From positions 1,920,001-1,952,000 of the forward strand of contig NZ_CP010341.1 in assembly GCF_000940845.1 (NCBI RefSeq): 32,000 bases of DNA. The letters are read 5' to 3'. Made by a program: the position numbers and the translations under genes. The DNA comes from Propionibacterium freudenreichii subsp. freudenreichii. GTDB taxonomy: Bacteria; Actinomycetota; Actinomycetes; Propionibacteriales; Propionibacteriaceae. Shown here piece by piece: positions 1-13,452 of the stretch (its first letter is position 1; each line of letters opens with the position of its first letter). Below the pieces are notes generated by a model, which did not search any database, was not told the origin of the DNA, and saw only the letters and a program-made list of their open reading frames with translations.

Positions 1-1893
1 GGCGACCAAGATTGGCCGTCCGCGCTCGACGATCTTGGTGATCGGCGACCATACGTCCTGTGGACTCGTGGCGCTTCCTCGTTCCTGGCGCGACCGCTCC
101 GCGAGTTTGTCACGATCACCGGCGCCAGGGCCGCGACGTCCTACGGCGAGCACGTGGCCGGAGAACTGGCTTCCGACCTCGCCAACGCTGAGCGGGTCGT
201 GGTTGCGGGCGGTGCGTACGGCATCGAAGGAGCTGCCCATCGAGCGGCCCTGGCATCCGGTGGCGACACGATCGCGGTCATGGCGAACGGCGTTGATCGC
301 CCCTACCCGATGGGTCACCGCGAGCTACTTGAGCGAGTGGCGGACCTCGGCCTCATGGTCAGCGAGGTTCCACCCGGTGCCGTGCCTACGCGCCACCGCT
401 TCCTCGCTCGGGCGCGGCTGATGGCCGCGCTCTCCGCAGCAACCGTCGTAGTTGAGGCTGGCGTCCGCTCTGGATCGATGGCCGTCGCACGGCGCGCGCA
501 CGAGCTCGGCCGCGCCGTAGGTGCTGTTCCCGGTCCGGTGAGCAGCGCAACGAGTGTTGGTCCGCATCAGCTCCTGCGAGACCGCATCGCTTCCTTGGTG
601 GCGGCCCCGTTCGACTGGCTCGCCCAGGCGATGGGTGCCGCCGCCGGGTGGCTGTTCGACGCGGTCTGGTCGGTGTTCGACACCACCACGCTGGTGGATG
701 TCACCAAGCCCGGCTACGTCGCCGTCTACAACCTGCTGTTCGGCATCGCGGTCTTCGTGATGCTGATCTTCTTCTGCCTCCAACTCATCACCGGCCTGAT
801 CCGCCGAGACCCCACCGCGCTCACCCGTGCCGCGCTCGGGCTGGCGAAGTCTGTCCTCGGTTCGTTCGTGGTCATCACGCTCACGGCGCTGTTGTTGGAA
901 GTCGTCGATCAGCTGTGCATCGGGGTCGTGCAGGCTGCCGGGGAGACTACCGAATCGATGGGCGACAAGATCGCCCTCCTCGCAGCGGGACTGGTCGGCA
1001 TCAACATCGCTGCGCCCGGGGTCGGGGGGATCATCACCATCTTCATGGCCGGCCTCGCCATCACCGCTGCCGCGATCGTGTGGCTCTCGCTGCTGGTGAG
1101 GAAGGCGCTGCTGCTGGTCGCGGTGGTGTTCGCTCCGCTCGCGTTCAGCGGTGCATCCTGGGACGCCTCGCGTGGGTGGATCGGGAAGTGGGCGATGTTC
1201 GTCGTCGCCCTGATCTGCTCCAAGCTCGTCCTGGTCGTCATGTTCCTCGTGGCGATCACCCAAGTTTCCGCACCCATCGACGCGGACTTGGCGTCGGTCA
1301 GTGATCCCATCGCGGGGATCGTGCTGATGGCGATGGCCGCGTTCGCCCCGTATCTGACCTACAAGTTCATCGCGTTCGTCGGGTTCGACATGTACCACGC
1401 GATCGGCTCCGAACAGGACGCCAAGAGCGCCCTCAACCGCCCGATCCCGGTTCCGCCCAAGCCGCAAGGCGGCGCAGACCCGAAGAAGGTTCTCGACGGC
1501 AGCAGTGGCGGAGGGAACGCAGGTGGAAGCTCTGGCGGAGGGGGTGGGAGCAGCGCGCCACCGCCGCCGAAGACCCCGGCGCCGACACCCGCGGCGAGCG
1601 GCGGAGGCGCGGCAGGCGGAGGCGGAGCAGCCGCTGCCGGTCCCGTGGCCGCAGGCATGGTGGTTGGGGCGAGTGTCGCCAAGGGCGCCGCCACCGCCGG
1701 CCCCAAGGCCGGGACGGCGCTGGGAGCCCAGGGCGAGCACGCCGCCGACGCAGCAGCCCAGACACCACCACCGCCCGCAGCATCAACGGCGGAACCGCCG
1801 CCGAGCCCCGCGCCGCGCCCGCCAGGCGCTGACCCGTCACCGCCACCGCCGAAGCAGCCCCCGCCGCCTGCCCCACGCCCACCGAAGGAGTAG
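1..1893 (+). CDS. ORF entering from upstream of the window. A DprA/Smf-like Rossmann domain (nt 1 to about 600) continues without a stop into a TrbL/VirB6-like polytopic conjugation membrane protein with a Pro/Gly/Ala-rich tail (possible independent start ATG 631).
   Basis: Frame 1 is open from nt 1 to TAG 1891-1893. The N-terminal part shows the DprA motif order: VVAGGAYGIEGAAHRAAL, IAVMANGVDRPYP, RFLARARLMAAL, VVVEAGVRSGS, GAVPGPV, HQLLRD. From about nt 631 there are six to seven hydrophobic helices (FGIAVFVMLIFFCLQLITG, VLGSFVVITLTALLL, IITIFMAGLAITAAAIVWL, LLLVAVVFAPLAF, WAMFVVALICSKLVLVVMFLVAI, IVLMAMAAFAPYL), then a PPPP/GGGG low-complexity tail (nt about 1440-1890). It is the first gene in a T4SS gene string. 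Confidence 0.6.
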   Translation, partial: GDQDWPSALDDLGDRRPYVLWTRGASSFLARPLREFVTITGARAATSYGEHVAGELASDLANAERVVVAGGAYGIEGAAHRAALASGGDTIAVMANGVDRPYPMGHRELLERVADLGLMVSEVPPGAVPTRHRFLARARLMAALSAATVVVEAGVRSGSMAVARRAHELGRAVGAVPGPVSSATSVGPHQLLRDRIASLVAAPFDWLAQAMGAAAGWLFDAVWSVFDTTTLVDVTKPGYVAVYNLLFGIAVFVMLIFFCLQLITGLIRRDPTALTRAALGLAKSVLGSFVVITLTALLLEVVDQLCIGVVQAAGETTESMGDKIALLAAGLVGINIAAPGVGGIITIFMAGLAITAAAIVWLSLLVRKALLLVAVVFAPLAFSGASWDASRGWIGKWAMFVVALICSKLVLVVMFLVAITQVSAPIDADLASVSDPIAGIVLMAMAAFAPYLTYKFIAFVGFDMYHAIGSEQDAKSALNRPIPVPPKPQGGADPKKVLDGSSGGGNAGGSSGGGGGSSAPPPPKTPAPTPAASGGGAAGGGGAAAAGPVAAGMVVGASVAKGAATAGPKAGTALGAQGEHAADAAAQTPPPPAASTAEPPPSPAPRPPGADPSPPPPKQPPPPAPRPPKE

Positions 1894-1896
1894 ACG

Positions 1897-3366
1897 ATGA
1901 GCAGCACGAACAACGACCGGCAGACTGCGGGCGAGCTGGTGCCGGTGAAGTTCTCCCGCCTCACCCGACGCGGTGTCCTTCTCGGGCTGTCGCTGACCCA
2001 GCTCATCGCCCTCGCCATTGGTGGAGCGACGTTGATCGGCGCGTTCTATGCCGGCGGCGGGATGCTGCTGGCCTACACCGCACCGGTCTGGGTACTCGCC
2101 GCCGCACTGACCTGGATACCCATCGCGGGCCGACCGAACGTGGAATGGCTACCTATCGCCTGCTGGTGGCTGTGGCGCACCACCGGCGGGCAACTGCTGT
2201 ACCGGCGCCGGATCGTGGTGCCTCGCCCCGTCGGGACGCTCGCTCTGCCTGGTGACATGGCGCGGCTGCGTGAGTACACCGACCCTGACACGGGCGCTGG
2301 GATGATCCACGACCCGCACGCCGCCACCCTGACGGTGGTGTGTGAGGTCACGCATCCCGCGTTCGTGCTCCTCGATCCTGGCGAGCAGGAACGCCGCGTC
2401 ACATCCTGGGGCCGAGTCCTCGCGACCGTGTGCCGGTCCGGGCGCATCGCGACCCTGCAAGTTCTCGAACGCACCCTCCCAGACTCCGGCACCGGCCTGG
2501 CCGAATGGTGGGCCGCTCACGGCACCCCGGACGGGTCATGGGCCGCCGACACCTACGCCGAGTTGATTGAGCGTGCCGGTCCCGCCGGTGAGCGCCACGC
2601 CACCACGCTCTCGCTGTCGCTGGACATGCGAGCCAGTGCCCGGCAGATCAGAACCGCCGGTGGCGGGATACGCGGTGCAGCCGCCGTCCTGCGGCAAGAA
2701 ATGAGCACCCTGGTCGCTGCGCTCCGCTCCGCCGACCTGTCACCCTCGGGATGGCTCACCGCAGGGCAGATCGCGGTCATGCTGCGCTCGGCCTACGACC
2801 CGGCGATCGCCGCGACACTGGAACGTCACGGCCGGCTCGGCCAGTCGCTCGCGACAGCGGGACCAGTTGCAGTCACCGAGACCTGGGGCCGGTTGCGCAC
2901 CGACTCCGCTCACCATGCGGTGCTCTGGGTCAGCGAGTGGCCGCGGTCGCTGGTGTATCCGGGGTTCTTGTCGCCGGTGCTGCTGTCCACCGGCATCCAG
3001 CGCTCGTTCTCTCTGATCTGCACCCCGATGCGCTCCGACCAGGCCGCCCGCGACATCCGCAAGAAGAAGGTCGAGCACATCTCCGACCAAGCCCAGCGCG
3101 CGAAGATCGGCCAGATCGAAGACGCCTCCCAGACCGCCGAGTACCACGACGTGCTCCAGCAGGAAGCCGACCTCACCGCCGGGCACGGCATCCTGCGCTA
3201 CTCCGGCCTCATCGCCGTCTCCGCACCCACTATCGAAGAACTCGACGCCGCAGTCGCCGCCATCGAACAGGCCGCGATCCAGGCCTCCTGCGAGACCCGA
3301 CTCCTCGTCGGACAGCAAGCCGCCGCCTTCACCGCCGCAGCGCTCCCGCTCTGTCGCAGGGTGTAG
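1897..3366 (+). CDS. Conjugation membrane protein, SCO6880-like. It has a PrgI/VirB3-like N-terminal pair of TM helices plus a large soluble domain.
   Basis: ATG 1897 lies 3 nt after the upstream stop. The N-terminus reads FSRLTRRGVLLGLSLTQLIALAIGGATLIGAFYA, with a second TM AYTAPVWVLAAALTWIPI, followed by about 380 aa of soluble sequence. The family assignment is recalled from the pattern and the T4SS context and was not searched. Confidence 0.6.
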   Translation: MSSTNNDRQTAGELVPVKFSRLTRRGVLLGLSLTQLIALAIGGATLIGAFYAGGGMLLAYTAPVWVLAAALTWIPIAGRPNVEWLPIACWWLWRTTGGQLLYRRRIVVPRPVGTLALPGDMARLREYTDPDTGAGMIHDPHAATLTVVCEVTHPAFVLLDPGEQERRVTSWGRVLATVCRSGRIATLQVLERTLPDSGTGLAEWWAAHGTPDGSWAADTYAELIERAGPAGERHATTLSLSLDMRASARQIRTAGGGIRGAAAVLRQEMSTLVAALRSADLSPSGWLTAGQIAVMLRSAYDPAIAATLERHGRLGQSLATAGPVAVTETWGRLRTDSAHHAVLWVSEWPRSLVYPGFLSPVLLSTGIQRSFSLICTPMRSDQAARDIRKKKVEHISDQAQRAKIGQIEDASQTAEYHDVLQQEADLTAGHGILRYSGLIAVSAPTIEELDAAVAAIEQAAIQASCETRLLVGQQAAAFTAAALPLCRRV

Positions 3367-3369
3367 AGG

Positions 3370-5064
3370 CTATGCGGACGGCAACTCAGCAGCAGAGGCA
3401 ATGGCAGCCCGAGCTTCGGTGCGACCAGAAGCGCCATCTGCGATCACAGTCACCAGGGCATCGATGCTCTCGTGGTCGGCGTCAGCAGGGAACATCCACT
3501 GGACGTCACTTCGTTCTGTAGTGACGCCGATGGTTGGCCGCACTCGCTCTCCGTGATTCGTTCTCGGACGCACGTACTTCACCTCATCGAGTGGGTACGT
3601 GGTGCCGAGCTCGCCACGACGTAGAAGCGCCTTCGGTGTCGCGGTGACGATTCGACGGTCTGTCACCGCGACAAAGGTGCTGGACGTGAGCATTTCGGCC
3701 ATCGCGCCGGCCCTTCCGGGGGCGAGCGCGTCCCAGGCCGTATCGACACGCTTGGCCAGGAGCACTGGCACCACTCCTGCGAGGTTGTGTGCGCCGGTCT
3801 CGTACGGGAATGCAATGCTGCGGAGTTGTTCACCGTCTTCCAGGAACCACCGAAGCACGTGCAGATAGGGATCAAGATCGAGCCCTTCGGGTGCGCACAC
3901 TGTGGACGGCACTGCTGGCATCTCGACTGCTGGCTGGAGCATGTCGGCCAGGGGCTCGATGGCTTCGAGGAGCTGCTTGCACGTGAGCTGAGACGCCTTT
4001 GCATCTTTCCGCTTCTTCGTGAGAGGCACGGTAGCGCGACCGGGGAGCTCGGCGATGATCCGCAACTCACGCACGAGTGACTCGGTCAACGAGCGGATTT
4101 CGGAGAGCGACTCGTTGATCTCGGCGGGAGTGTTCCGGGCGATCCGGTCGAAGAGCTGCGCTTCGCTCTCGTCATTGGTGCTTCGTGTTCTGGCGAGGGC
4201 AGCCCGGACCGCCTGGTACTCCGCGTGGGTCTTCAGCGAGCTGAGCAACGCGTAGGTATCGAAGACGATTGCTTCGGCGTTGGATTCGAGGTACTGGCGG
4301 CGAGCGCGACCCTCCACCTTCCCGAGTTCCTGGACGTGGCCTGCCACGTTCTTTCGGTACAGCTTCAGTTGCTTGCGGATGTTGGGGCCGCTGGGAGCGA
4401 TGGGCTCCCAGACAGAGTCTGTGATGGCGTCGAGTTCGCGGGTCTCCTTGACCGCCTCATCGACGGACTCGGCCAGTCCTTCAAGCTCCGCCCATTGCTC
4501 GTTTCGGATGGCTTTGAGCGTCTGCGTCGTGAGCTGGATGTTGGTACGAACGAGGCCGGATATCTCGCCGAGCTGCATTTGGAGCGCGATCATGGCGACG
4601 GCCGGGCCGATGGCTGCGATCGCTGTAGCGGCTGTCATCGAAGCGGGGATGAAACGCGCCTGGGCGACCAGTTCGCCGTTCTTGAAGATCGCCCCGAGCT
4701 TGGCGCCGTCCTTTGCTGCCATCTGTCCGCCGCTCTTCAGCAGGGACAGCGTGGCGTCGTTGACGCGGAAGAGGCCTTGCGCGCTCGATACAGCTTCCGC
4801 AACGTTTCCGACGATGGTGCCTGCGTTGCCGAGGGAGCCAAGGGCGGTGGAGAGCTGGGCGCGGTCAAAGGAAGGCACCATGTCGAGGCTGATGAGTTCA
4901 AGACCGTCGGGGACTTCGCCGAATACGACTGCGACACCTGGTGTCACCTCGACGAGGATCGTGGACGTTGCGAGTTCAAGCGCGTCGGACCTGATCTGAC
5001 CATCTTCTTTGGCCTGCCCGCCAATAGCCTCGTCGCTACCGGACTCGCCGCGCGCGTCGTCCAT
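3370..5064 (-). CDS. Hypothetical 564-aa protein. It has an acidic N-terminus, one strongly hydrophobic helix, a long helical/coiled-coil region and a C-terminal bacterial-PH-like region. No family was recognised.
   Basis: ATG at 5064 is preceded by SD GAAGGAGAG (5070-5078 on the plus-strand complement). The track ORF 3370-5208 is trimmed to this start. The hydrophobic helix ASMTAATAIAAIGPAVAMIALQMQL maps to nt 4570-4644. The C-terminal motif FVAVTDRRIVTAT...YPLDEVKYV...VQWMF resembles bPH/YokE-type domains at pattern level only. Confidence 0.7.
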   Translation of the reverse strand: MDDARGESGSDEAIGGQAKEDGQIRSDALELATSTILVEVTPGVAVVFGEVPDGLELISLDMVPSFDRAQLSTALGSLGNAGTIVGNVAEAVSSAQGLFRVNDATLSLLKSGGQMAAKDGAKLGAIFKNGELVAQARFIPASMTAATAIAAIGPAVAMIALQMQLGEISGLVRTNIQLTTQTLKAIRNEQWAELEGLAESVDEAVKETRELDAITDSVWEPIAPSGPNIRKQLKLYRKNVAGHVQELGKVEGRARRQYLESNAEAIVFDTYALLSSLKTHAEYQAVRAALARTRSTNDESEAQLFDRIARNTPAEINESLSEIRSLTESLVRELRIIAELPGRATVPLTKKRKDAKASQLTCKQLLEAIEPLADMLQPAVEMPAVPSTVCAPEGLDLDPYLHVLRWFLEDGEQLRSIAFPYETGAHNLAGVVPVLLAKRVDTAWDALAPGRAGAMAEMLTSSTFVAVTDRRIVTATPKALLRRGELGTTYPLDEVKYVRPRTNHGERVRPTIGVTTERSDVQWMFPADADHESIDALVTVIADGASGRTEARAAIASAAELPSA

Positions 5065-5200
5065 GTGGGCTCTCCTTCTCGCCGGTGACTGCCTCGTGCC
5101 TCCCTCCGACGCCTCCATCAAGTATGTCACAGCCACCTCCGACAGCCCCGGGTGCTTCACAGCGCACCTCCTCATCACACGACTCCCGAGGAGGCCGACC

Positions 5201-6028
5201 ATGCCCACGTTCTTCGATTCGACTGCTGACGCTGCTGAGGCGTCCGAGGCTTTGCGGGGGTTGGCTCATGCGAGCCGTGCGTTCGATCAGCCTGCGCAGA
5301 TGTACGGGGTGATCGGCGATCTGTCGTCGGGGATGCGGTCGCTGCGGCAGGTGCTCGATCAGATCGCCGATGTTCACGAGCGCAAGGCCGCGCACGCGTT
5401 CAATGACGACGGCAACCACGAGGCCGGAGTGCGGGATGCGTTGGCTGCTGCGGAGGAGTTGCACCTGGCGGCGAGCCTCGTAGATCGGGCCTACGACCGG
5501 ATCGCCGAGGGTTTCATCGCGGCCGGCCGGATCGCATGGCATCCTGACCCCGCCGTCGAGGAGGCCGCACCGTCCAGGTGGGTCAACGTGGTGTTCCTCC
5601 AGGGTGATGAGGCCGACAGGCCGTTGCGCATCCTCGGCGAGCTGGGGCATGTCGACGCGGTGGACTTCCTCGCGCAGTGGGACTACGGAGATGAGACCAC
5701 GCAGGCTGCGCTGGAGAACGGGTACGTCTACGACGAGCCCGGCGATGCCACCAACGACCAGGTGGCGATCTCCGGCGACTACGCGCTGGTCGTCAACCCG
5801 CACCTCGGCTACGTCTCGCTGCTGCGCCGCTACACCGAACCCGGTGCCGAGGCTCAGGAAGCCGAGCAGGCCGGGCCGTCCCCGATGCGGGACGGCCCGG
5901 AGTTGCTGGTGTCGTACTCGTCGCCAGGCGCACCGAAGCGGACGGATGCTCCTTCGAAGCGGGAGGGGTCGTGGTTTGAGCCGGCGAAGATCGCTGCGGT
6001 GAAGCAGGCGCGAGGGCTGGGGCTGTGA
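5201..6028 (+). CDS. Hypothetical 275-aa protein (helical N-terminal half, mixed C-terminal half), translationally coupled to the downstream ATPase.
   Basis: ATG 5201 is preceded by SD GAGGAGG (5188-5194). Its stop TGA 6026-6028 overlaps the GTG 6025 start of the next gene (GTGA). The track ORF 5009-6028 is trimmed to this start. No motif was recognised. Confidence 0.7.
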   Translation: MPTFFDSTADAAEASEALRGLAHASRAFDQPAQMYGVIGDLSSGMRSLRQVLDQIADVHERKAAHAFNDDGNHEAGVRDALAAAEELHLAASLVDRAYDRIAEGFIAAGRIAWHPDPAVEEAAPSRWVNVVFLQGDEADRPLRILGELGHVDAVDFLAQWDYGDETTQAALENGYVYDEPGDATNDQVAISGDYALVVNPHLGYVSLLRRYTEPGAEAQEAEQAGPSPMRDGPELLVSYSSPGAPKRTDAPSKREGSWFEPAKIAAVKQARGLGL

Positions 6029-7524
6029 CCCAGGATTGGGAGCGGCTGCACACCGCCGTTCTGGTGGCACCGTCGAAGGAACGGCGGAAGCTCCGTAAGC
6101 AGCGCCGTCGGGCAGAGGCACGGCTCCATGCCGAGCAGCGCAAGTCCGCGCTTGCGGCCGCGAAGGCGAAGGCTGAGCAGGAGCGGGCCGAGCGGCGCGC
6201 CACGGTCTACCTGCCGAAGGCCGGCGAGGCGGGTGCCGCGCGGTTGCGGACGCCGGGCCGGTTTCATCTGACGCGGCATCAGGACACGTCGGCGACGTTG
6301 GCGGGTGCGTATCCGTTCGTCGCCGAGGGTGGTCTCGGTGCGGATGGGGTGTTCGTGGGGCAGGACCTGTATTCGGGTGGGAGTTTCGTCTACGACCCGT
6401 GGGTGCTGTACGCGCGCGGGATCATCACCGCACCGAACGTGGTGGTGGCCGGGATCGTCGGCTCGGGGAAGTCGAGCCTCGCGAAGTCGCTGCACACGAG
6501 GTCGTTGCCGTTCGGGCGGCGCGTGTATGTTCCCGGCGATCCGAAGGGCGAGCACACCGCGGTCGCCAACGCTGTCGGCGGACGCGCGATCGTGCTCGGC
6601 CACGGCCTCAACACCCGCCTGAACCCACTCGATGAAGGTCACCGGCCCAGCGGCCTGTCGGATGAGCAGTGGGCCTCCACGGTTGCGGCGCGGCGGCGTG
6701 ACCTGATCGGCGCACTGGCCGAGACGGTGCTCGCGCGCGGGTTGTCGCCGTTGGAGCACACCGCGATCGACATCGCCCTGACCCAGACGGTGCGGGAGAA
6801 CGACGTGCCGATCCTGCCGATGGTCGTCGATCACATTCTCGCCCCGAGCTCGGATGCCGACGGCCGGTTGGCCGAGGACGGCAGGCTCGTCGGTCACGCG
6901 CTGCGCCGTCTCGTCGCGGGCGACTTGGCCGGATTGTTCGATGGGCCTTCGACGGTCGCGTTTGATCCGTCGTTGCCGATGATCTCGCTCGATCTCTCGC
7001 GGGTCACCGAGAACTCGACCCTGATTTCGGTGTTGATGACGTGCTCGTCGGCGTGGATGGAGTCCGCGTTGCTCGATCCGAACGGTGGGCAGCGGTGGGT
7101 GATCTACGACGAGGCGTGGCGGCTCATGTCCCACCCGGCGCTGTTGCGGCGGATGGATGCGCACTGGCGACTCGCGCGGCATTACGGGATCGCGAACATG
7201 CTGATCTTCCACAAGCTCACCGATCTCGACAACGTGGGCGACCAGGGCTCCGCTATGCGTTCGCTGGCCAACTCGCTGCTGGCGAATGCAGAGACGAGGA
7301 TCGTGTACCGGCAGGAGTCCGACCAGCTCGGGCCGACCGCGAAGGCTCTCGGGCTGACCGGGACCGAGCAGCAGCTCTTGCCGAACCTCGGCGTCGGACA
7401 AGGCCTGTGGCGGATCAAGGCCAGGAGCTTCGTCTGCCAACACCAACTCCACCCCGACGAACTCGCCCTATTCGACACCAGCAGCCGTGCAGCCGGGAGA
7501 AGCCCGCGAGTCTATGACATGTGA
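6025..7524 (+). CDS. Conjugative T4SS ATPase, VirB4/TraC-like (DUF87-type ATP-binding protein).
   Basis: Walker A GIVGSGKSSLAKS and Walker B RWVIYDEAWRL are present, with a Lys/Arg-rich N-terminus. It lies in the same string as the TrbL-like gene and the coupling protein. Confidence 0.85.
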   Translation: MTQDWERLHTAVLVAPSKERRKLRKQRRRAEARLHAEQRKSALAAAKAKAEQERAERRATVYLPKAGEAGAARLRTPGRFHLTRHQDTSATLAGAYPFVAEGGLGADGVFVGQDLYSGGSFVYDPWVLYARGIITAPNVVVAGIVGSGKSSLAKSLHTRSLPFGRRVYVPGDPKGEHTAVANAVGGRAIVLGHGLNTRLNPLDEGHRPSGLSDEQWASTVAARRRDLIGALAETVLARGLSPLEHTAIDIALTQTVRENDVPILPMVVDHILAPSSDADGRLAEDGRLVGHALRRLVAGDLAGLFDGPSTVAFDPSLPMISLDLSRVTENSTLISVLMTCSSAWMESALLDPNGGQRWVIYDEAWRLMSHPALLRRMDAHWRLARHYGIANMLIFHKLTDLDNVGDQGSAMRSLANSLLANAETRIVYRQESDQLGPTAKALGLTGTEQQLLPNLGVGQGLWRIKARSFVCQHQLHPDELALFDTSSRAAGRSPRVYDM

Positions 7525-8377
7525 GCCGCTGGCTGCCGGTCGGCGACCCAGCTGCGCAGCATGTCTAGAGCGTCCGCGGACGGGGTGCCGGGCTCTGGCA
7601 GATAGGTCGTGATCGAAAGGCCTGGCGTGGATTGGATCGCGAGCACGTCATAGCCGATGGTCAACTCGCCGACGACAGGATGGTTCAGGCGTTTCGTGCC
7701 GCTGGTGTGCGTGCGGACGGTGTGCGCACCCCACCAGGTGCGGAACTGGTCGCTGTGCGTCGAGAGTTCCCCAACAAGGCTCATCAGGGCGCGGTCGGCG
7801 GGGTCGTGCCCGGCAAGCAGGCGCAAGGCCGAGACGGATTCGCGGGCGCTTTTCTCCCAGTCGGGGTAGAACTCCTGCGACCGCGGATCGAGGAACAGAT
7901 ACCTTGTGTGGTTCAACGGCGGAGCGTTCTCCGGGAACAGGTGCGGGAACAGGGCCCGACCCAGCGCGTTCGATGCGGCCGGGTCGCCGAGCCGGGTAAG
8001 GGAGATCGCGGGTACATCTCGCATCGCGTCCAGCATCCGCGCGATTCGCTCCGATACCCGTGGTGCAGGCTTGACGCGCCCTGGCCTGCGGGGGCCGGTC
8101 GCGGTGCGGGCGAGATCGAGCAGGTGCGTTGTCTCCACGTCGTCCAGGTGGAGGGCCCGGGCGAGGGCGTAGAGGACGGACTCGGAGACCCCGGCGAGGT
8201 TCCCACGCTCCATGCGCGTGTAGTACGCGGTGGAGACCCCAGCGAGTTGAGCGACCTCCTCGCGGCGCAGGCCCGGAACCCGGCGTTCTCCGCCGAAAAT
8301 CGTCGCCCGGCCTGCTCTGGGGTCAGGCGGGCACGCAACGCGGTGAGGAACTGCTGCACCTCCCGCTTATTGTCCAT
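7512..8377 (-). pseudogene. XRE-family HTH / MmyB-like ligand-binding transcriptional regulator, disrupted by a 1-nt frameshift near nt 8301-8310 (or a sequencing error).
   Basis: ATG 8377 gives MDNKREVQQFLTALRARLTPEQAG in one frame. The expected continuation IFGGERRVPGLRREEVAQLAGVSTAYYTRMERGNLAGVSESVL... is in the next frame and runs to the stop at 7512-7514. The total length of 866 nt is not a multiple of 3. The C-terminal part (RYLFLDPRSQEFYPDWE...WWGAHTV) is typical of MmyB-like domains. Confidence 0.75.
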
Positions 8378-8404
8378 ACCCTCAAGGTTACGACCGCACG
8401 CTGT

Positions 8405-8439
8405 GGGGCTGGGAGTCATGGCCGGTATCTCCCAGCCCC
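8405..8439. promoter_or_regulatory. Perfect 11-13-11 inverted repeat (GGGGCTGGGAG-N13-CTCCCAGCCCC) in the divergent regulator/reductase intergenic region. Candidate operator.
   Basis: Read directly from the sequence: the left arm is 8405-8415 and the right arm 8429-8439. It lies 28-62 nt upstream of the regulator ATG (8377) and 65-99 nt upstream of the reductase ATG (8504). Confidence 0.35.
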
Positions 8440-8503
8440 TGGTGGCGTGGGTGATAACAGCAGTGTCTCCCGCACCCGGCCGCCTGGTGCCTAGCGTGGA
8501 CGT

Positions 8504-9385
8504 ATGGCTACTCCCACGATCACTTTGAATAATCGCGTCATGTTGCCCGCGCTCGGGTTCGGGGTCTTCCAGACCCCGCCCGATGAGACCGCGACCGCGG
8601 TGACGGAGGCGCTGCGCGTCGGCTACCGGCACATCGACACGGCCGCCGCCTATGGCAACGAGAACGGTGTCGGCGATGCGCTTCGCGCGTCGGGCCTTGC
8701 CCGTGATGAGGTGTTCGTGGAGACGAAGCTGTGGATCAGCGACTACGGCTACGACGCAGCCTTGCACGGGTTCGAGAAGTCCGCCGCGAAGCTCGGCGTC
8801 GACCAGATCGACCTGCTCCTGCTTCACCAACCCCTGACCGAGAGCTTCGACCGCACCCTTGACGCCTACCGCGCGTTGGAGCAGCTCTACGCCGACGGCA
8901 AGGTGCGTGCGATCGGGGTCTCCAACTTCATGCCCGACAAGCTCACCCGCCTCCTGACGGAGACGGACGTGGTACCTGCGGTGAACCAGATCGAGGTGCA
9001 CCCCTACTTCCAACAGCACGAGCTGCAAGCCCTGCACGCCGAACACGGCATCCTCACCCAGGCATGGTCGCCGATCGGAGGTATCACGATCTACGGCGGC
9101 GGGCAGCAGAGCACCCTGGATAACGAAACCATCGGCGAGATCGCGCGGGTTCACGGGAAGTCCCCGGCACAGGTGATGCTGCGCTGGCATGCGCAGGAGA
9201 GCCGTTCGGCGATCCCGAAGTCGGTCAAGCCTCACCGGATCGCAGAGAACTTCGACATCTTCGACTTCGAGCTAAGCGCGGAAGAACTGGCGGCGATTGA
9301 CGCCCTGGACACCGGGGTGCGCAGCGGCCCCGACCCGGACTCGATCACGATGGAGAACTACGGGATGCCCATCCCCGAAGCCTGA
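8504..9385 (+). CDS. Aldo/keto reductase (2,5-diketo-D-gluconate reductase-like).
   Basis: AKR hallmarks are present: LPALGFGVFQ, GYRHIDTAAAYGNE, ETKLW, DLLLLHQP, IGVSNF, NQIEVHPY, SPAQVMLRWH...SAIPKS. Confidence 0.92.
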   Translation: MATPTITLNNRVMLPALGFGVFQTPPDETATAVTEALRVGYRHIDTAAAYGNENGVGDALRASGLARDEVFVETKLWISDYGYDAALHGFEKSAAKLGVDQIDLLLLHQPLTESFDRTLDAYRALEQLYADGKVRAIGVSNFMPDKLTRLLTETDVVPAVNQIEVHPYFQQHELQALHAEHGILTQAWSPIGGITIYGGGQQSTLDNETIGEIARVHGKSPAQVMLRWHAQESRSAIPKSVKPHRIAENFDIFDFELSAEELAAIDALDTGVRSGPDPDSITMENYGMPIPEA

Positions 9386-9442
9386 TCCTTCGTCGGCGTT
9401 GGACTTGACGTTTGCAGGGTCGGGGTAGGCAGGCCAGAGACT

Positions 9443-9463
9443 GGGGCTCGGCCCCTGTTGTTT
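9443..9463 (+). terminator. Small intrinsic-terminator-like hairpin after the reductase gene.
   Basis: GGGGC-tcg-GCCCC (9443-9455) is followed by TGTTGTTT (9456-9463). Confidence 0.4.
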
Positions 9464-9609
9464 CGGCAGCGGTCTCGGAAAGCCAGCGCCGTCGGAGGTC
9501 CTGCGGCCTCTTAGGGCGCACCCCGTAGGGCGCGTGCACACCTGCCAGACATGAGCCTGCACCCAGACCATGACTCCAGCGACCTCACCCCACTCCGGGC
9601 TATCGGCCG

Positions 9610-10161
9610 ATGAACCTCACCGGCCCGCGCCGATCCACCCCTACCGACGACGAGGCGACTGCTCCCGTCGAGCTGCCGCACGTCCTCGTCACCGTCGCCG
9701 AAGACGGCACACTCACCGCGATGGTAGATGGAGCACCGTTCCCGTCGCCGGACGGGACCGCGTGGACGCGGGCGACGTTCGGGCCGCTCATGGATGCGAT
9801 CACCAAGGATCGCACCATCGCGGTCCGTGTCGAGGTGCGCGAGAGCGACGGTAGCGTCTTCACCGACATCCTCCGCACCCGCAAGCCTCGACGCGCAGTG
9901 GCACCGTCCGAGAACTCGGTGCCGGAAACTCGTCGGAGTCGTCACGCCCGACGGGTGCCGCGCTTGTCTGAGGTCACGGCTCACGGGTTCGTGCCTGGCG
10001 AGGATGTCGCCGTCGCGACGATCGTCTCCCATACCGACGCCACCGGAACCGGGGAGGCACGTGCGCTCATCGACCTCGACGACCTGCCCGCCGGAACATC
10101 GCACGAGGTGATCCTGTTCGGGCGTATCTCGGGCACGCTCGCGGTGCGGCGGCTGATATGA
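9610..10161 (+). CDS. Hypothetical 183-aa protein, translationally coupled to the coupling-protein gene.
   Basis: The ORF ends at TGA 10159-10161, overlapping ATG 10158 (ATGA). No family was recognised. The start is uncertain because the SD is weak. Confidence 0.55.
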   Translation: MNLTGPRRSTPTDDEATAPVELPHVLVTVAEDGTLTAMVDGAPFPSPDGTAWTRATFGPLMDAITKDRTIAVRVEVRESDGSVFTDILRTRKPRRAVAPSENSVPETRRSRHARRVPRLSEVTAHGFVPGEDVAVATIVSHTDATGTGEARALIDLDDLPAGTSHEVILFGRISGTLAVRRLI

Positions 10162-11936
10162 ACCAGCGGCAGGCCGGGGGCATGGGCGACGAACTCACCA
10201 ACGCCGCCCTCGTTGGCCTGGTCGGCATGTTCGGGATCGCTCTCGTCCTCCGTGCCGCTGGCAGCGTCGCCGCGTTCCTCACCGGCACACCGCAGCCCGA
10301 CGTCGGCGCAGCGGCGGCGCTCGCCGTGCTGTTCAACCCCGGCGACCCGGCGACCGCGCTCGGTGCCGACGGACTCAACCCGGTGGTTTACTGGCTCGTC
10401 AGCGCGGCACTGCTCGGCGGACTCGCCGCCGGGATCGTTTGGGTCTGGATGGTCCTGCGCCGACACACGCGGAAGACAGAGACCGACCCGCACCGACTCG
10501 CCGGGATCGCGACCAGCCACGAGGTCAAGACCGTGGCATCCGCGAAAGCGCTGCTTCACCGCGCGGCCATGCTGCGGCCCTCATGGGAGTCGCCAGCACC
10601 ACAAGATGTCGGCTACCTCCTGGGTGCCAGTCGCGGGACGAAGGTCTGGGCATCGGTCGAAGACTCGATCCTGCTGATCGGCCCGCCCCGCTCCGGCAAG
10701 GGCCTGCACGTCGTCATCAACGCGATCCTCGACGCACCCGGCGCGGTCGTCACCACCAGCACGCGGCCCGACAACCTCACCGCGACCCTCCGCGCCCGAC
10801 GCCGCAAGGGCGGACCGGTCTCCGTATTCGACCCTCAACACCTCGCCGAAGGCATCCCCGCCGGGCTGCGCTGGTCACCCATTCGCGGCTGCGACGATCC
10901 GCTGACCGCGATGATCCGCGCCAACGGCCTCGCCTCCGCCACAGGACTCTCCGCGGGAGGGGTCGAGTCAGGCGGGTTCTGGGAAGGCAAAACCCGCACC
11001 GCACTCCAAAGCCTGCTGCACGCCGCAGCGCTCGACGGCCGCCCGCCCGCCGAGCTGTTCAGGTGGACCCTCGATCCCAGCGCCGCATCCGAGGCCGTCG
11101 CGATCCTCAACTCCCACCCGAACGCCGCGATGGGCTGGGACGACTCCCTGGCCGCGATGATCGACGCCGACCCCAAGACCCGCGACAGCATCTGGCAAGG
11201 TGTCTCCCTCGCGCTCGCCGCACTCGCCGACCCACGAGTGCTCGATGCGGTCACACCAGGCCCGCATGAGCACTTCGACCCCGAGACCTTCCTCACCGAA
11301 CAAGGCACCCTCTACCTGCTCGCCACCGGTGCCGGTGCAGGAGCCTCCGCATCGCTGGTCGCGGCATTCGTCGAAGACCTCATCGAAACCGCCCGCAGGC
11401 TCGCCGCCCGCTCACCCGGAGCGCGACTCGACCCGCCAGTGCTGCTCGCGCTCGACGAGATCGGAAACCTCGCACCACTGCCGTCACTGCCGACGCTCAT
11501 GGCCGAAGGCGGTGGCACCGGGATCACGACCATGCCGGTCTTGCAGTCCCTCGCACAGGCTCGCGACCGATGGAGTGAACACCAGGCCGGCGCGATCTGG
11601 GACGCCAGCATCGTCAAGATCATCCTCGGCGGCGCGTCGAACAGCCGCGACCTTCAAGACCTCTCCACCCTCATCGGTGAGCGTGACGAGTACACCGACA
11701 GCGTGACCCTCGGCGACCACGGCACCCGCTCGAACCAACGCTCGATCCGCCGCGTCCCGATCCTGCCTCCAGACCGCATCCGCACCCTGCCATTCGGCAC
11801 CGGCATCACGATGCTGCGCTCCGCGCCACCCATCGTCACCGACCTGCGGGCCTGGCCGACACGGTCTGACGACGCGCAGCTCCGCAGCGATCGCGACGAA
11901 CTCGAAGCGCTGCTGCGCCACCGCCCCGCCTCCTGA
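10158..11936 (+). CDS. Type IV coupling protein (VirD4/TraG/TraD family).
   Basis: Two N-terminal TM helices are followed by Walker A LLIGPPRSGKGLHV and Walker B VLLALDEIGNL. Its length of 592 aa and the T4SS context fit the family. Confidence 0.88.
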   Translation: MNQRQAGGMGDELTNAALVGLVGMFGIALVLRAAGSVAAFLTGTPQPDVGAAAALAVLFNPGDPATALGADGLNPVVYWLVSAALLGGLAAGIVWVWMVLRRHTRKTETDPHRLAGIATSHEVKTVASAKALLHRAAMLRPSWESPAPQDVGYLLGASRGTKVWASVEDSILLIGPPRSGKGLHVVINAILDAPGAVVTTSTRPDNLTATLRARRRKGGPVSVFDPQHLAEGIPAGLRWSPIRGCDDPLTAMIRANGLASATGLSAGGVESGGFWEGKTRTALQSLLHAAALDGRPPAELFRWTLDPSAASEAVAILNSHPNAAMGWDDSLAAMIDADPKTRDSIWQGVSLALAALADPRVLDAVTPGPHEHFDPETFLTEQGTLYLLATGAGAGASASLVAAFVEDLIETARRLAARSPGARLDPPVLLALDEIGNLAPLPSLPTLMAEGGGTGITTMPVLQSLAQARDRWSEHQAGAIWDASIVKIILGGASNSRDLQDLSTLIGERDEYTDSVTLGDHGTRSNQRSIRRVPILPPDRIRTLPFGTGITMLRSAPPIVTDLRAWPTRSDDAQLRSDRDELEALLRHRPAS

Positions 11937-13270: not shown

Positions 13271-13452
13271 AATCAACCGTGCAAGCCTCGCGATGCGGGG
13301 TGTTGTGGCCTAAACCTCGCCGCTCGGCGGGCAACACGCACCGAGACCATCGGGTCTCGCCCTACAGCCTTCATCGGCTGCTCTCACGATCAACACCCCT
13401 CCCACGAACAGTTGGGAGCGCGAGGGTCGAACCGCGTGAGAGTGAGCCCCCG

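What the first reader, a model, noticed from the sequence alone, without database searches (positions are those of the whole stretch)
3370..6028. Orphan divergent gene pair wedged into the conjugation operon (564-aa membrane/coiled-coil/PH-like protein plus a 275-aa partner)
Seen in the sequence:
- The plus-strand transfer genes (TrbL-like, SCO6880-like 1897-3366, VirB4-like ATPase 6025-7524) are split by a minus-strand gene (3370-5064, strong SD). Its stop codon lies only 3 nt from the stop of the SCO6880-like gene, so head-on transcription meets with no room for a terminator.
- They are also split by a plus-strand gene (5201-6028, strong SD) whose stop overlaps the ATPase start (GTGA).
- The two genes diverge from a 136-nt spacer (5065-5200).
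- The 564-aa product has an acidic N-terminus and a segment GNAGTIVGNVAEAVSSAQGLFRVNDATLSLLKSGGQMAAKDGAKLGAIFKNGELVAQARFIP.
- It also has a single very hydrophobic helix (nt 4570-4644), about 230 aa of helical heptad-like sequence, and a C-terminal region of about 110 aa (about nt 3430-3780) whose pattern resembles bacterial PH domains.

I recognise no named family for either protein.

Inference: reverse orientation with its own SD and promoter region is what ICE cargo expressed in the integrated state looks like. Examples are entry or surface exclusion, abortive-infection or anti-phage effectors, and membrane-active toxins with a partner. Collision with operon transcription could make its expression reciprocal to transfer-gene expression.
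Basis: partly seen in the sequence, partly recalled or inferred. Interest (0 to 1): 0.75.

Follow-up and report, generated by a model that had tools for sequence, protein, structure and literature searches.

The report
Swappable cargo gene in ICE hotspot
The two genes are not a pair: the 275-aa gene is a fixed part of the conjugation machinery of an actinobacterial mobile element. The 564-aa gene is an uncharacterised, self-contained cargo gene in a swap-in/swap-out slot that elsewhere holds phage-defence-type genes, so it is a plausible but untested new defence candidate.

Summary
The sequence features hold. A 564-aa minus-strand gene (ORF A, 3370-5064) and a 275-aa plus-strand gene (ORF B, 5201-6028) lie between a SCO6880-family gene and a VirB4-like ATPase. 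The element is a Propionibacterium freudenreichii T4SS ICE.

They are not a pair. ORF B is a backbone gene: in every related element it lies directly upstream of, and usually overlaps, the ATPase gene. In 33 of 56 ORF-B-sampled elements it directly follows SCO6880, 10-119 bp away.

ORF A fills a variable hotspot between the SCO6880 stop and a conserved G(C/T)GCACCT leader. Other elements carry DUF6602/NucC-like nuclease, DUF4062/PDC-S60 and several unknown genes there. Nearly all are antisense and end 0-22 nt from the SCO6880 stop.

ORF A belongs to a family named only from Actinomycetota (337 clusters at 50% identity) with no Pfam, NCBIfam, PADLOC or PHROG match. It keeps its own extended -10-like motif. 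It survives intact in decayed ICE fragments and occurs beside BREX, RM, NACHT, SoFic and TIR-like genes, and in one prophage-like region.

The model shows an unresolved N-terminal domain, an invariant hydrophobic helix, a helical bundle and a PH-like domain.

Best reading: an autonomous cargo gene, probably a membrane-acting conflict or defence factor. Function is untested.

The parts
1897..3366 (+). SCO6880-family T4SS gene. Its stop codon is the left edge of the cargo hotspot.
   Evidence: NCBIfam SCO6880_fam 5e-139. It is conserved at 67-100% identity in related elements. Its last few codons and its stop codon vary with the cargo.
3370..5064 (-). ORF A: 564-aa cargo gene of an uncharacterised family named only from Actinomycetota.
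   Evidence: Searches give the ORF. Searches found no family match. Homologue searches gave 759 clusters at 90% identity and 337 at 50% identity. It is present in only a subset of related ICEs and also outside ICEs.
4645..4968 (-). ORF A aa 33-140: conserved N-terminal domain of strands and helices. The fold is unresolved.
   Evidence: It has many invariant residues, but pLDDT is below 50 in both models.
4570..4638 (-). ORF A aa 143-165: near-invariant Ala/Gly-rich hydrophobic helix with motif (A/S)(I/V)GPA(V/I)AM(I/L)A(L/I)Q. It is a candidate membrane-inserting segment.
   Evidence: Kyte-Doolittle 1.91. It is the top hydrophobic window in most of 37 homologues. G153, P154, A157, M158 and Q162 are invariant.
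4045..4557 (-). ORF A aa 170-340: bundle of long helices.
   Evidence: AlphaFold pLDDT is 80-92 over aa 190-340.
4000..4044 (-). ORF A aa 341-355: conserved basic linker, LPGRATxPLTKKRKDAK.
   Evidence: The sequence is conserved and is a low-confidence loop in the models.
3388..3912 (-). ORF A aa 385-559: PH-like beta sandwich with a C-terminal helix.
   Evidence: Foldseek matched PH domains, including bacterial 3dcx and 3hsa. Pfam bPH_3 matched 3 of 37 distant homologues.
5119..5129 (-). Extended -10-like motif TGACATACTTG, 65 nt upstream of the ORF A start. It is the candidate promoter that travels with ORF A.
   Evidence: It is the only match in the window, against 0.02 expected by chance. 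It sits at the same offset in almost all ICE copies and in non-ICE copies down to 64-69% protein identity. Promoter function is inferred.
5065..5150 (.). Cargo-specific part of the spacer, holding the ORF A 5' region. It is conserved only among ORF A-bearing loci.
   Evidence: Alignment of the regions upstream of ORF B across different cargo types.
5162..5200 (+). Backbone leader of ORF B: motif GCGCACCT (5162-5169) through the SD GAGGAGG (5189-5195). It is the right edge of the hotspot.
   Evidence: It is conserved upstream of ORF B whatever the cargo, and a GTGCACCTG version is present in empty junctions.
5201..6028 (+). ORF B: 275-aa conserved backbone gene of the T4SS operon, apparently translationally coupled to the ATPase gene.
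   Evidence: It is 100% identical to P. freudenreichii proteins. It always lies directly upstream of the VirB4-like gene. It directly follows SCO6880 in 33 of 56 sampled elements.
6025..7524 (+). VirB4-like ATPase, matching the C-terminal half of VirB4/TraC models.
   Evidence: NCBIfam conju_CD1110 1.9e-18, TraC 2.4e-12, VirB4_CagE 8e-10.

Best explanation
The region holds two unrelated things.

(1) ORF B belongs to the transfer operon of a broad-host-range actinobacterial SCO6880-type T4SS ICE. It is read through into the VirB4-like ATPase gene by a GTGA overlap.

(2) ORF A is a self-contained cargo gene. It is inserted antisense in a recombination hotspot bounded by the SCO6880 stop codon and a conserved G(C/T)GCACCT leader about 40 nt upstream of ORF B. 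Different elements carry different genes in this slot.

Shown: ORF A brings about 85 nt of its own upstream DNA, including an extended -10-like motif. Inferred: it is therefore transcribed independently of the normally silent transfer operon, in the integrated state.

Inferred from context and anatomy: ORF A is a single-protein conflict factor, most likely anti-phage and abortive-infection-like. It benefits the host, which would explain why it stays intact when the rest of the ICE decays.

Proposed mechanism (inference only): the helical bundle and PH-like domain hold the protein in an inactive, membrane-associated or oligomeric state and act as sensor or regulator. A trigger then releases the invariant hydrophobic GPA helix with the N-terminal domain to insert into and disrupt the membrane.

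Variants fused to an ADP-ribosylglycohydrolase domain and paired with an NrtR-like regulator hint that ADP-ribose or NAD-related signals can feed into it.
For: ORF B is backbone:
- It is identical in many P. freudenreichii assemblies and always abuts the ATPase gene.
- In an ORF-B-seeded metagenome sample, 33 of 56 SCO6880-to-ORF B junctions are 10-119 bp with no insert.

The slot is a hotspot:
- 20 junctions hold other inserts and 3 hold ORF A (a fourth, L061, lacks SCO6880 on its contig).
- Other occupants are DUF6602 (PADLOC PD-DExK/NucC-like), DUF4062 (PDC-S60, 5e-22), a 343-365-aa family, and TM, Cys-motif and ABC-F genes.
- Two rearranged P. freudenreichii assemblies carry a GmrSD_N gene next to an ORF A stub.
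- Cargo is almost always on the minus strand, with its stop 0-22 nt from the SCO6880 stop.
- The conserved right boundary is present in filled and empty sites alike.

ORF A is autonomous:
- The motif TGnSATACTTG lies at -65 in ICE copies and in diverged non-ICE copies.
- ICE fragments in Serinibacter, a Tessaracoccus MAG and Actinomyces keep ORF A with only stubs of its neighbours; it is confirmed full-length in Serinibacter.
- It is a solo gene in Streptomyces, Microbispora and gut-metagenome chromosomes.

Defence association:
- The ARH-fused variant, with its NrtR-like and DUF5067 neighbours, lies next to BREX and NACHT, next to a type III RM, and next to a DUF1156/helicase pair.
- In Corynebacterium pacaense (L051) large genes directly upstream fit the BREX models (PglZ, BrxL) hit in the pooled scan; the per-locus assignment is by gene size.
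- Immediate neighbours match PDC-S02, a TIR-like effector and SoFic.
- AbiE, type I MTase, PDC-S01/S56 and Schlafen-like genes lie within 5 kb.
- One copy lies at the edge of a prophage-like region next to a SNIPE nuclease.

Anatomy.
Against: - There is no experimental or expression evidence.
- There is no homology to any known defence protein. PADLOC found nothing, PDB sequence search found nothing, and Foldseek found only generic PH and helical matches.
- Only 3 of 20 immediate neighbours tested in non-ICE loci hit defence models.
- Several chromosomal copies sit among ordinary genes.
- About 25 of 41 species-level occurrences are in this very ICE slot, including a diverged Microbacterium ICE lineage. 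A role tied to the ICE is therefore not excluded.
- The N-terminal 160 residues are not confidently modelled.
- The hydrophobic helix is Ala-rich and borderline for a true transmembrane segment, so the membrane mechanism is conjecture.
Confidence: 0.5

Rival explanations
1. ORF A is an accessory function of the ICE itself, such as entry or surface exclusion, mating-pair modulation or donor-cell protection. On this reading it has co-evolved with this ICE family at this position.
For: - About 25 of 41 species-level ORF A loci lie in exactly this slot.
- These include a Microbacterium ICE lineage whose ORF B is only 43-47% identical while ORF A is 65-72% identical.
- The protein has a candidate membrane helix.
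- Only 3 nt separate its stop from the SCO6880 stop, suggesting tight integration with the operon.
Against: - It is absent from 53 of 56 ORF-B-sampled junctions.
- Other cargo takes the same slot in closely related backbones.
- It is kept while its ICE flanks decay to stubs.
- It is present as a solo gene or in BREX/RM islands without any T4SS gene.
Confidence: 0.13
2. ORF A is host-beneficial cargo unrelated to phage or MGE conflict, for example an envelope-stress or lipid-binding membrane protein. It hitch-hikes on mobile elements as metabolic cargo does.
For: - Bacterial PH domains are typically membrane-associated. This is established knowledge; the fold match is.
- Several chromosomal copies lie among ordinary genes.
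- The same ICE carries clearly non-defence cargo: an aldo-keto reductase with an MmyB-like regulator, and an ABC-F gene with a dehydrogenase in L090.
Against: - It lies repeatedly beside BREX, RM, NACHT, SoFic, TIR-like and PDC genes in independent contexts.
- Defence-type genes share the hotspot.
- Its distribution is patchy, with 97-99% identity across different orders. This is typical of conflict genes.
Confidence: 0.2
3. ORF A and ORF B form a divergently transcribed two-gene module, either toxin or effector plus partner or an exclusion pair.
For: - The two genes diverge from a 136-nt spacer and both have strong SD sequences.
- Adjacent locus tags for homologues of both occur in one MAG.
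Against: - ORF B is present with empty slots and with every other cargo.
- Only about 40 nt upstream of ORF B is shared across cargo types. The rest of the spacer belongs to ORF A.
- No complete ORF B accompanies ORF A outside the ICE.
Confidence: 0.04
4. ORF A is an addiction or stabilisation toxin. It would penalise loss of the element, as in post-segregational killing, rather than defend against phage.
For: - It is a single conserved gene with a putative membrane-active helix on mobile elements.
- Toxin-antitoxin genes (PhdYeFM, AbiE) lie nearby in some islands.
Against: - No conserved small partner or antitoxin gene lies next to it in any context.
- It persists as the only intact gene of decayed elements. 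This is the opposite of what an addiction module is selected for.
Confidence: 0.08

Closest known systems
Defence-gene hotspots of integrative conjugative elements, e.g. SXT/R391 ICE hotspot 5 (LeGault et al. 2021; from my own knowledge, not read here)
   Same: It is a fixed site between conserved transfer genes where closely related elements carry different, mutually exclusive cargo. Much of that cargo is phage-defence type.
   Different: - The ICE lineage is different: actinobacterial SCO6880/SCO6881-type T4SS with a serine recombinase.
- The slot lies inside the split-VirB4 part of the operon.
- Cargo is almost always antisense, with its stop codon 0-22 nt from the upstream gene's stop.
- Defence activity of the cargo here is inferred, not shown.
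ICE-borne abortive-infection genes such as ICEBs1 spbK/yddK (from my own knowledge)
   Same: It is a single cargo gene on an ICE, expressed in the integrated state, that protects the host population from phage.
   Different: SpbK is a TIR-domain protein. ORF A shares no detectable sequence or fold with it, and no phage phenotype is known for ORF A.
Bacterial PH-domain proteins (Pfam bPH families; PDB 3dcx, 3hsa)
   Same: The C-terminal approximately 175 aa of ORF A adopt a PH-like beta sandwich with a C-terminal helix. Some distant family members reach Pfam bPH_3 at about 6e-4.
   Different: - The window protein itself does not match any bPH model.
- The PH-like part is a minority of a 564-aa protein that also has an N-terminal domain, a hydrophobic helix and a helical bundle, none with a known counterpart.
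Single-protein membrane effectors of abortive infection and signalling defence systems, such as the TM effectors of CBASS/Pycsar and bacterial gasdermins (from my own knowledge)
   Same: The proposed logic is the same: a latent membrane-disrupting segment held in check by a regulatory domain. Some homologues lie next to trypsin-like proteases, and a conserved basic linker could be a cleavage or lipid-binding site.
   Different: - No homology was found.
- No cyclase or dedicated protease partner is conserved.
- Membrane activity is purely inferred from hydropathy.

Membership tests
Backbone of the SCO6880-type actinobacterial T4SS ICE (tested for ORF B) | The gene is present at the same operon position in related elements, whatever their cargo. 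| tested here: met
   ORF B lies directly upstream of the VirB4-like gene in almost every related element that carries both genes (L126 is rearranged). It follows SCO6880 within 10-119 bp in 33 of 56 junctions.
Backbone of the SCO6880-type actinobacterial T4SS ICE (tested for ORF A) | The gene is present at the same operon position in most related elements. | tested here: not met
   ORF A is in 3 of 56 ORF-B-sampled junctions. 33 are empty and 20 hold other genes.
Two-gene module ORF A + ORF B | The two genes co-occur wherever either is found. | tested here: not met
   ORF B occurs without ORF A in most ICEs. ORF A occurs without a complete ORF B in at least 15 distinct non-ICE contexts.
Known anti-phage defence families (PADLOC-DB 2.0) | Significant match to a model of a known or candidate defence protein. 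| tested here: not met
   There was no hit at E <= 1 for ORF A or ORF B.
Candidate defence gene by guilt-by-association (defence-island criterion of Doron et al. 2018; from my own knowledge) | A majority of family members lie within about 10 genes of known defence genes, in diverse contexts. | tested here: inconclusive
   - Defence genes lie near roughly half of about 17 distinct non-ICE loci: BREX (two loci), type III RM, NACHT, SoFic, TIR-like, PDC-S02, AbiE and others.
- Defence-type genes share the ICE slot.
- Only 3 of 20 immediate neighbours hit defence models.
- No background rate was computed.
Bacterial PH domain (Pfam bPH_3, PF14470) | Sequence match above the Pfam gathering threshold. 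| tested here: not met
   The window protein has no hit at E <= 0.1. 3 of 37 distant homologues match weakly, best 6e-4.
PH-like fold | Seven-stranded beta sandwich capped by a C-terminal helix, with structural similarity to solved PH domains. | tested here: met
   pLDDT is about 83-89 for the core strands. Foldseek gave probability 1.0 and TM 0.6-0.68 to 3dcx, 3hsa and eukaryotic PH domains.
Integral membrane protein | At least one hydrophobic segment long enough to span the bilayer, and experimentally membrane-bound. | tested here: inconclusive
   One 19-residue window scores KD 1.91 and is conserved across the family. It is Ala/Gly-rich with a central Gly-Pro and was modelled with low confidence. 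Localisation cannot be tested with these tools.

The most novel reading that the evidence does not exclude
ORF A founds a new family of single-protein abortive-infection defence, so far named only from Actinomycetota. A PH-like/helical regulatory module would gate an invariant membrane-inserting helix. In some lineages the protein would be wired to ADP-ribose/NAD signalling through an ADP-ribosylglycohydrolase fusion under an NrtR-like regulator. It would spread between orders as interchangeable cargo of a previously undescribed defence hotspot inside the T4SS operon of a broad-host-range ICE.
Probability: 0.25. Interest if true: 0.7.

Novelty: new variant of a known kind. Interest (0 to 1): 0.55.

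Why it matters
Defence repertoires of Actinomycetota are far less explored than those of Proteobacteria and Firmicutes. The phylum includes industrial dairy propionibacteria, for which phage is a practical problem.

This locus gives two testable leads:
- A precisely bounded cargo hotspot in a widely transferred ICE family. ORF A copies are 97-99% identical in Propionibacterium, Pseudonocardia, Microbacterium and Tessaracoccus. The slot could be mined as a catalogue of candidate defence genes.
- A widespread, strongly conserved 564-aa protein family with no annotation. Its context and anatomy suggest a new membrane-acting immune effector.

If ORF A proves not to be defensive, the hotspot and the correction of the 'pair' reading still stand. 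The protein would then be one more conserved unknown.

Tried and rejected
Searches that gave nothing for ORF A:
- Pfam, NCBIfam, PADLOC and PHROG scans. For ORF B only an unknown-function PHROG matched.
- A profile search of PDB sequences with the family alignment: nothing below E = 1.
- Three Foldseek searches. Two AlphaFold models against PDB and one against BFVD gave only PH-domain and generic helical matches (Sec7-PH, DH-PH). I treat the latter as architecture resemblance, not homology.
- IMG/VR viral contigs and INPHARED phage genomes: no relatives. The gene is therefore not typical phage cargo, despite one prophage-edge copy.
- The sigma-70 consensus scan found no promoter in 3000-6300 and no convincing terminator between the convergent genes. 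The promoter proposal rests on motif conservation instead.

Technical failures:
- The diverse alignment A2 could not seed a genome scan, so A1 was used. This biases that sample toward close relatives.
- The look-up of P0023 failed.

Other leads and an early reading I dropped:
- hhalign of the family profile against a 405-aa hotspot protein from L066 gave a collinear but weak match (probability 14%, E 0.002). I recorded it as a lead only.
- I first read Serinibacter L001 as a free-standing chromosomal gene. blastn then showed it is a 2.4-kb ICE fragment.
- I first took the GmrSD gene in L005/L009 for a simple cargo swap. It is a larger rearrangement that removed SCO6880 and left 24 codons of ORF A.


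Full report
**What is in the sequence**

The window is high-GC. Its ORF B protein is 100% identical to proteins found in many Propionibacterium freudenreichii assemblies.
- ORF A runs 5064 to 3370 on the minus strand and encodes 564 aa, with an AAGGAGAG ribosome-binding site.
- ORF B runs 5201-6028 on the plus strand and encodes 275 aa, with GAGGAGG upstream.
- The stop of the upstream plus-strand gene (TAG, 3364-3366) is 3 nt from the ORF A stop.
- GTGA at 6025-6028 links ORF B to the next gene.
- The upstream gene is a clear SCO6880-family protein (5e-139).
- The downstream gene matches the C-terminal halves of VirB4/TraC models.
- A VirD4/TraG coupling protein lies at 10158-11936.
- A large serine recombinase lies at 13279-15207.

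This is therefore a T4SS-type integrative conjugative element of the kind noted, but not dissected, in P. freudenreichii genomes (PMC5644110). The gene at 154-1893 is a DprA-domain/SCO6881-family fusion. I could not confirm the 'TrbL-like' label.

**ORF B is backbone**

Every contig that encodes an ORF B relative places it directly upstream of the VirB4-like ATPase.

I sampled the element family without reference to ORF A, by seeding a metagenome scan with an ORF B alignment. I then located the window's backbone proteins by tblastn. Fifty-six contigs carry both the end of SCO6880 and the start of ORF B in collinear order.
- In 33 of them the two genes are 10-119 bp apart, with nothing between.
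- Those are the more distant lineages, with SCO6880 at 67-93% identity.
- Only about 40 nt upstream of ORF B is conserved across elements: a G(C/T)GCACCT motif through the ribosome-binding site. The same motif sits in the empty junctions.

ORF B is thus a fixed operon member of unknown function. Its only family match is phrog_23219 (1.4e-13, aa 126-211).

**The slot is a cargo hotspot**

Among closer relatives of the window's element (SCO6880 at 91-98% identity), every junction is filled, and with different things. All-against-all clustering of ORFs in the gap sequences gave these groups:
- the ORF A family, 26 loci over all samples;
- a 343-365-aa family, 7 loci, with a weak PADLOC PDC-S66 hit in a low-complexity region;
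- a DUF4062 protein, 3 loci (Pfam 2.9e-06; PADLOC PDC-S60 5e-22);
- a DUF6602 protein, 2 loci (Pfam 1.3e-19; PADLOC PD-DExK and NucC-like);
- a 174-aa protein with an N-terminal hydrophobic segment;
- a 272-277-aa Cys-motif protein;
- 187-, 254-, 259-, 287- and 405-aa unknowns;
- an ABC-F ATPase with a zinc dehydrogenase.

Two rearranged P. freudenreichii assemblies carry a GmrSD_N (type IV restriction-like) gene next to the first 24 codons of ORF A.

Nearly all occupants are antisense to the operon and end 0-22 nt from the SCO6880 stop. The last few SCO6880 codons and the stop codon itself differ with the cargo. This suggests the left recombination boundary lies just inside the end of SCO6880. 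In the ORF-B-seeded sample ORF A fills 3 of 56 junctions. A fourth, L061, lacks the SCO6880 side.

**ORF A as a family**

ORF A has no match in Pfam, NCBIfam, PADLOC or PHROGs and none in PDB sequences.

It is nevertheless a large and strongly conserved family.
- Searches found 759 clusters at 90% identity and 337 representative clusters at 50% identity.
- Every hit that carries an informative name is from Actinomycetota. These include Serinibacter, Rhodococcus, Actinomyces, Schaalia, Microbacterium, Tessaracoccus, Cryobacterium, Streptomyces, Microbispora and Saccharomonospora.
- Copies 97-99% identical to the window's occur in Pseudonocardia, Microbacterium, Tessaracoccus and Aeromicrobium genomes within the same ICE. 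The element has therefore moved very recently between orders.

A species-level genome scan found 41 loci.
- About 25 are in this ICE slot, including a diverged Microbacterium lineage (ORF B 43-47%, ORF A 65-72% identity).
- The rest have no T4SS genes.
- That scan was seeded from close relatives, so it over-represents the ICE.

**ORF A is autonomous and outlives the ICE**

The 85 nt next to the ORF A start are conserved only among ORF A-bearing loci.
- They contain TGACATACTTG (5119-5129, minus strand), an extended -10-like element.
- It is the only match in the window, against 0.02 expected by chance.
- The motif TGnSATACTTG sits at -64 to -69 in almost all ICE copies.
- It also sits there in non-ICE copies as diverged as 64-69% protein identity.

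Three loci that first looked free-standing are ICE fragments.
- Serinibacter L001 matches window 3038-5436.
- A Tessaracoccus MAG, L033, matches 3469-5417.
- Actinomyces L038 matches 3256-5143.
- In each, stubs of SCO6880 and/or ORF B flank the ORF A sequence. ORF A is confirmed full-length in Serinibacter (567 aa).

Keeping one gene while the element around it decays argues that ORF A benefits the host independently of conjugation.

**Contexts outside the ICE**
- An 871-aa variant carries an N-terminal ADP-ribosylglycohydrolase domain fused to the ORF A module. It has a divergent NrtR-like NUDIX/winged-helix gene and a downstream DUF5067 gene. This three-gene unit lies next to BREX and a NACHT protein, next to a type III RM, and, on Rhodococcus plasmid pYLC1, next to a DUF1156/helicase pair.
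- In Corynebacterium pacaense, large genes directly upstream of the ORF A homologue match in size the BREX PglZ and BrxL models that were hit in the pooled neighbour scan.
- In Schaalia it lies at the edge of a prophage-like region beside a SNIPE/T5orf172 nuclease.
- In Rhodococcus it lies in an integrase-bounded island with Fic, trypsin-like and antitoxin genes.
- Across 11 further loci, genes within 5 kb match AbiEi/AbiEii, SoFic, type I MTase, PDC-S01/S02/S56, Schlafen-like, SLOG and SIR2-like models.
- Of 20 immediate neighbours, three are PDC-S02, a TIR-like effector and SoFic.
- Other copies are solitary genes among ordinary chromosomal genes.
- No relatives were found in IMG/VR or in phage genomes. 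Four actinobacterial megaplasmids carry one.

No partner gene is conserved across these contexts.

**Anatomy of ORF A**

Two AlphaFold models were built, with 19 and 58 sequences (mean pLDDT 57 and 66). They agree on the following layout:
- an acidic, variable tail (aa 1-30);
- a conserved but poorly modelled strand-and-helix domain (aa 33-140);
- a near-invariant hydrophobic helix (aa 143-165);
- a confident bundle of long helices (aa about 170-340, pLDDT 80-92);
- a conserved basic linker, LPGRATxPLTKKRKDAK;
- a PH-like beta sandwich with a C-terminal helix (aa about 385-559).

The hydrophobic helix is the top Kyte-Doolittle window in most of 37 diverse homologues, at 1.6-2.06. Foldseek confirms the PH fold, including bacterial PH structures 3dcx and 3hsa. 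Otherwise it finds only helical-plus-PH architectures such as Sec7-PH and DH-PH. I regard these as resemblance of layout, not homology. Pfam bPH_3 matches three distant members weakly.

**Interpretation**

Shown:
- ORF B is backbone.
- ORF A is cargo in a bounded, variable, mostly antisense hotspot.
- ORF A is a solo gene with its own conserved upstream motif.
- It is found in several defence islands and outlives the ICE.

Inferred, at moderate confidence: ORF A is a conflict or defence gene expressed in the integrated state.

Inferred, at low confidence: it acts at the membrane through the invariant helix, under control of the helical/PH module. ADP-ribose-related inputs would matter in the fused variants.

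The main rival is an ICE-linked role such as exclusion. It is weakened by ORF A's absence from most elements and its survival without them. A non-conflict membrane function cannot be excluded.

The head-on, stop-to-stop arrangement is real and shared by most cargo in the slot. Nothing here tests that.

**Novelty and score**

Defence-cargo hotspots in ICEs are known. This particular hotspot, its tight antisense geometry and its occupants do not appear in the literature I could search. The ORF A family is unannotated in every library available here.

I rate the finding a new variant of a known kind, with interest 0.55. It is a solid, testable lead with a corrected anatomy, but without functional evidence.

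Noticed in passing
window 7512-9385: This is a second cargo insertion in the same operon. An MmyB-like regulator (7512-8213, minus strand; PF17765 3e-51) and an aldo-keto reductase (8504-9385, plus strand) sit between the VirB4-like ATPase and the conserved 183-aa gene. Related elements L005, L009 and L010 go straight from the ATPase to the 183-aa gene, and the L005/L009 blastn alignments skip window 7500-9606.
   Followed up: partly
window 154-1893; L004, L006-L008: The SCO6881-family gene carries an N-terminal DprA (DNA_processg_A) domain here. In other ICE lineages a DprA-like gene lies downstream of the ATPase instead. Some P. freudenreichii assemblies split the fusion into two ORFs. An ISL3 transposase lies just upstream, so the left part of this ICE copy may be rearranged.
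   Followed up: no
L002 9260-13285; L003 5787-9812; L145 7327-11352: A three-gene unit recurs beside three different restriction-like systems: BREX, type III RM and a DUF1156/helicase pair. The unit is an NrtR-like NUDIX/winged-helix gene, an ADP-ribosylglycohydrolase fused to the ORF A module (871 aa), and a DUF5067 gene. This suggests a link to ADP-ribose or NAD signalling.
   Followed up: partly
L001 9633-12029; L033 9652-11596; L038 9924-11811: These are chromosomal fragments of the ICE (80-85% identical to window 3038-5436) in Serinibacter, a Tessaracoccus MAG and Actinomyces. Stubs of SCO6880 and/or ORF B flank the ORF A sequence, which is confirmed full-length (567 aa) in Serinibacter.
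   Followed up: yes
L005 and L009, 5774-7864: In two P. freudenreichii assemblies, homology to the window starts at 4991, leaving only the first 24 codons of ORF A. Beyond that lies a GmrSD_N (type IV restriction-like) gene, and no SCO6880 occurs within 8 kb. This is a larger rearrangement rather than a clean cassette swap.
   Followed up: yes
L066 gap ORF (405 aa, minus strand, between SCO6880 and ORF B): This is another occupant of the hotspot. It has a weak, collinear profile match to the N-terminal half of the ORF A family (hhalign E 0.002, probability 14%) and a C-terminal hydrophobic segment instead of the PH-like domain. It may be a distant, shorter relative.
   Followed up: partly
window 5162-5169 and the equivalent sites in L085, L089, L091, L121: A conserved G(C/T)GCACCT motif lies about 40 nt upstream of ORF B in both filled and empty junctions. 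It could be an internal promoter, an operator or a recombination boundary.
   Followed up: no
L141 7968-8831; L013 14685-15713; L014 8751-9788: Trypsin-family protease genes lie close to ORF A homologues. One is directly upstream in Streptomyces davaonensis, and others lie within 3 kb in Rhodococcus islands. ORF A has a conserved basic linker that could be a cleavage site. This is anecdotal.
   Followed up: no
L121-L125, L130, L134, L136, L139: In one ICE lineage ORF B matches in two pieces (about aa 1-125 and about aa 115-211) that lie about 300-570 nt apart. The family therefore tolerates an inserted domain between its helical N-terminal part and its conserved C-terminal domain.
   Followed up: no
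L027 and L031: MAG contigs labelled Hyphomicrobiales and Prevotella carry this high-GC actinobacterial ICE with ORF A at 84-87% identity. This is most likely a binning error rather than cross-phylum transfer.
   Followed up: no
L028, L029, L030, L037, L046, L062 (about 880 nt between SCO6880 and ORF A): Several ICEs have extra DNA between ORF A and SCO6880. Its only ORFs (96 and 126 aa) look non-coding or out of frame. In L026 and L031 the same position holds an intact 272-277-aa Cys-motif gene. The slot can therefore hold two cassettes, and one appears degraded in some elements.
   Followed up: no
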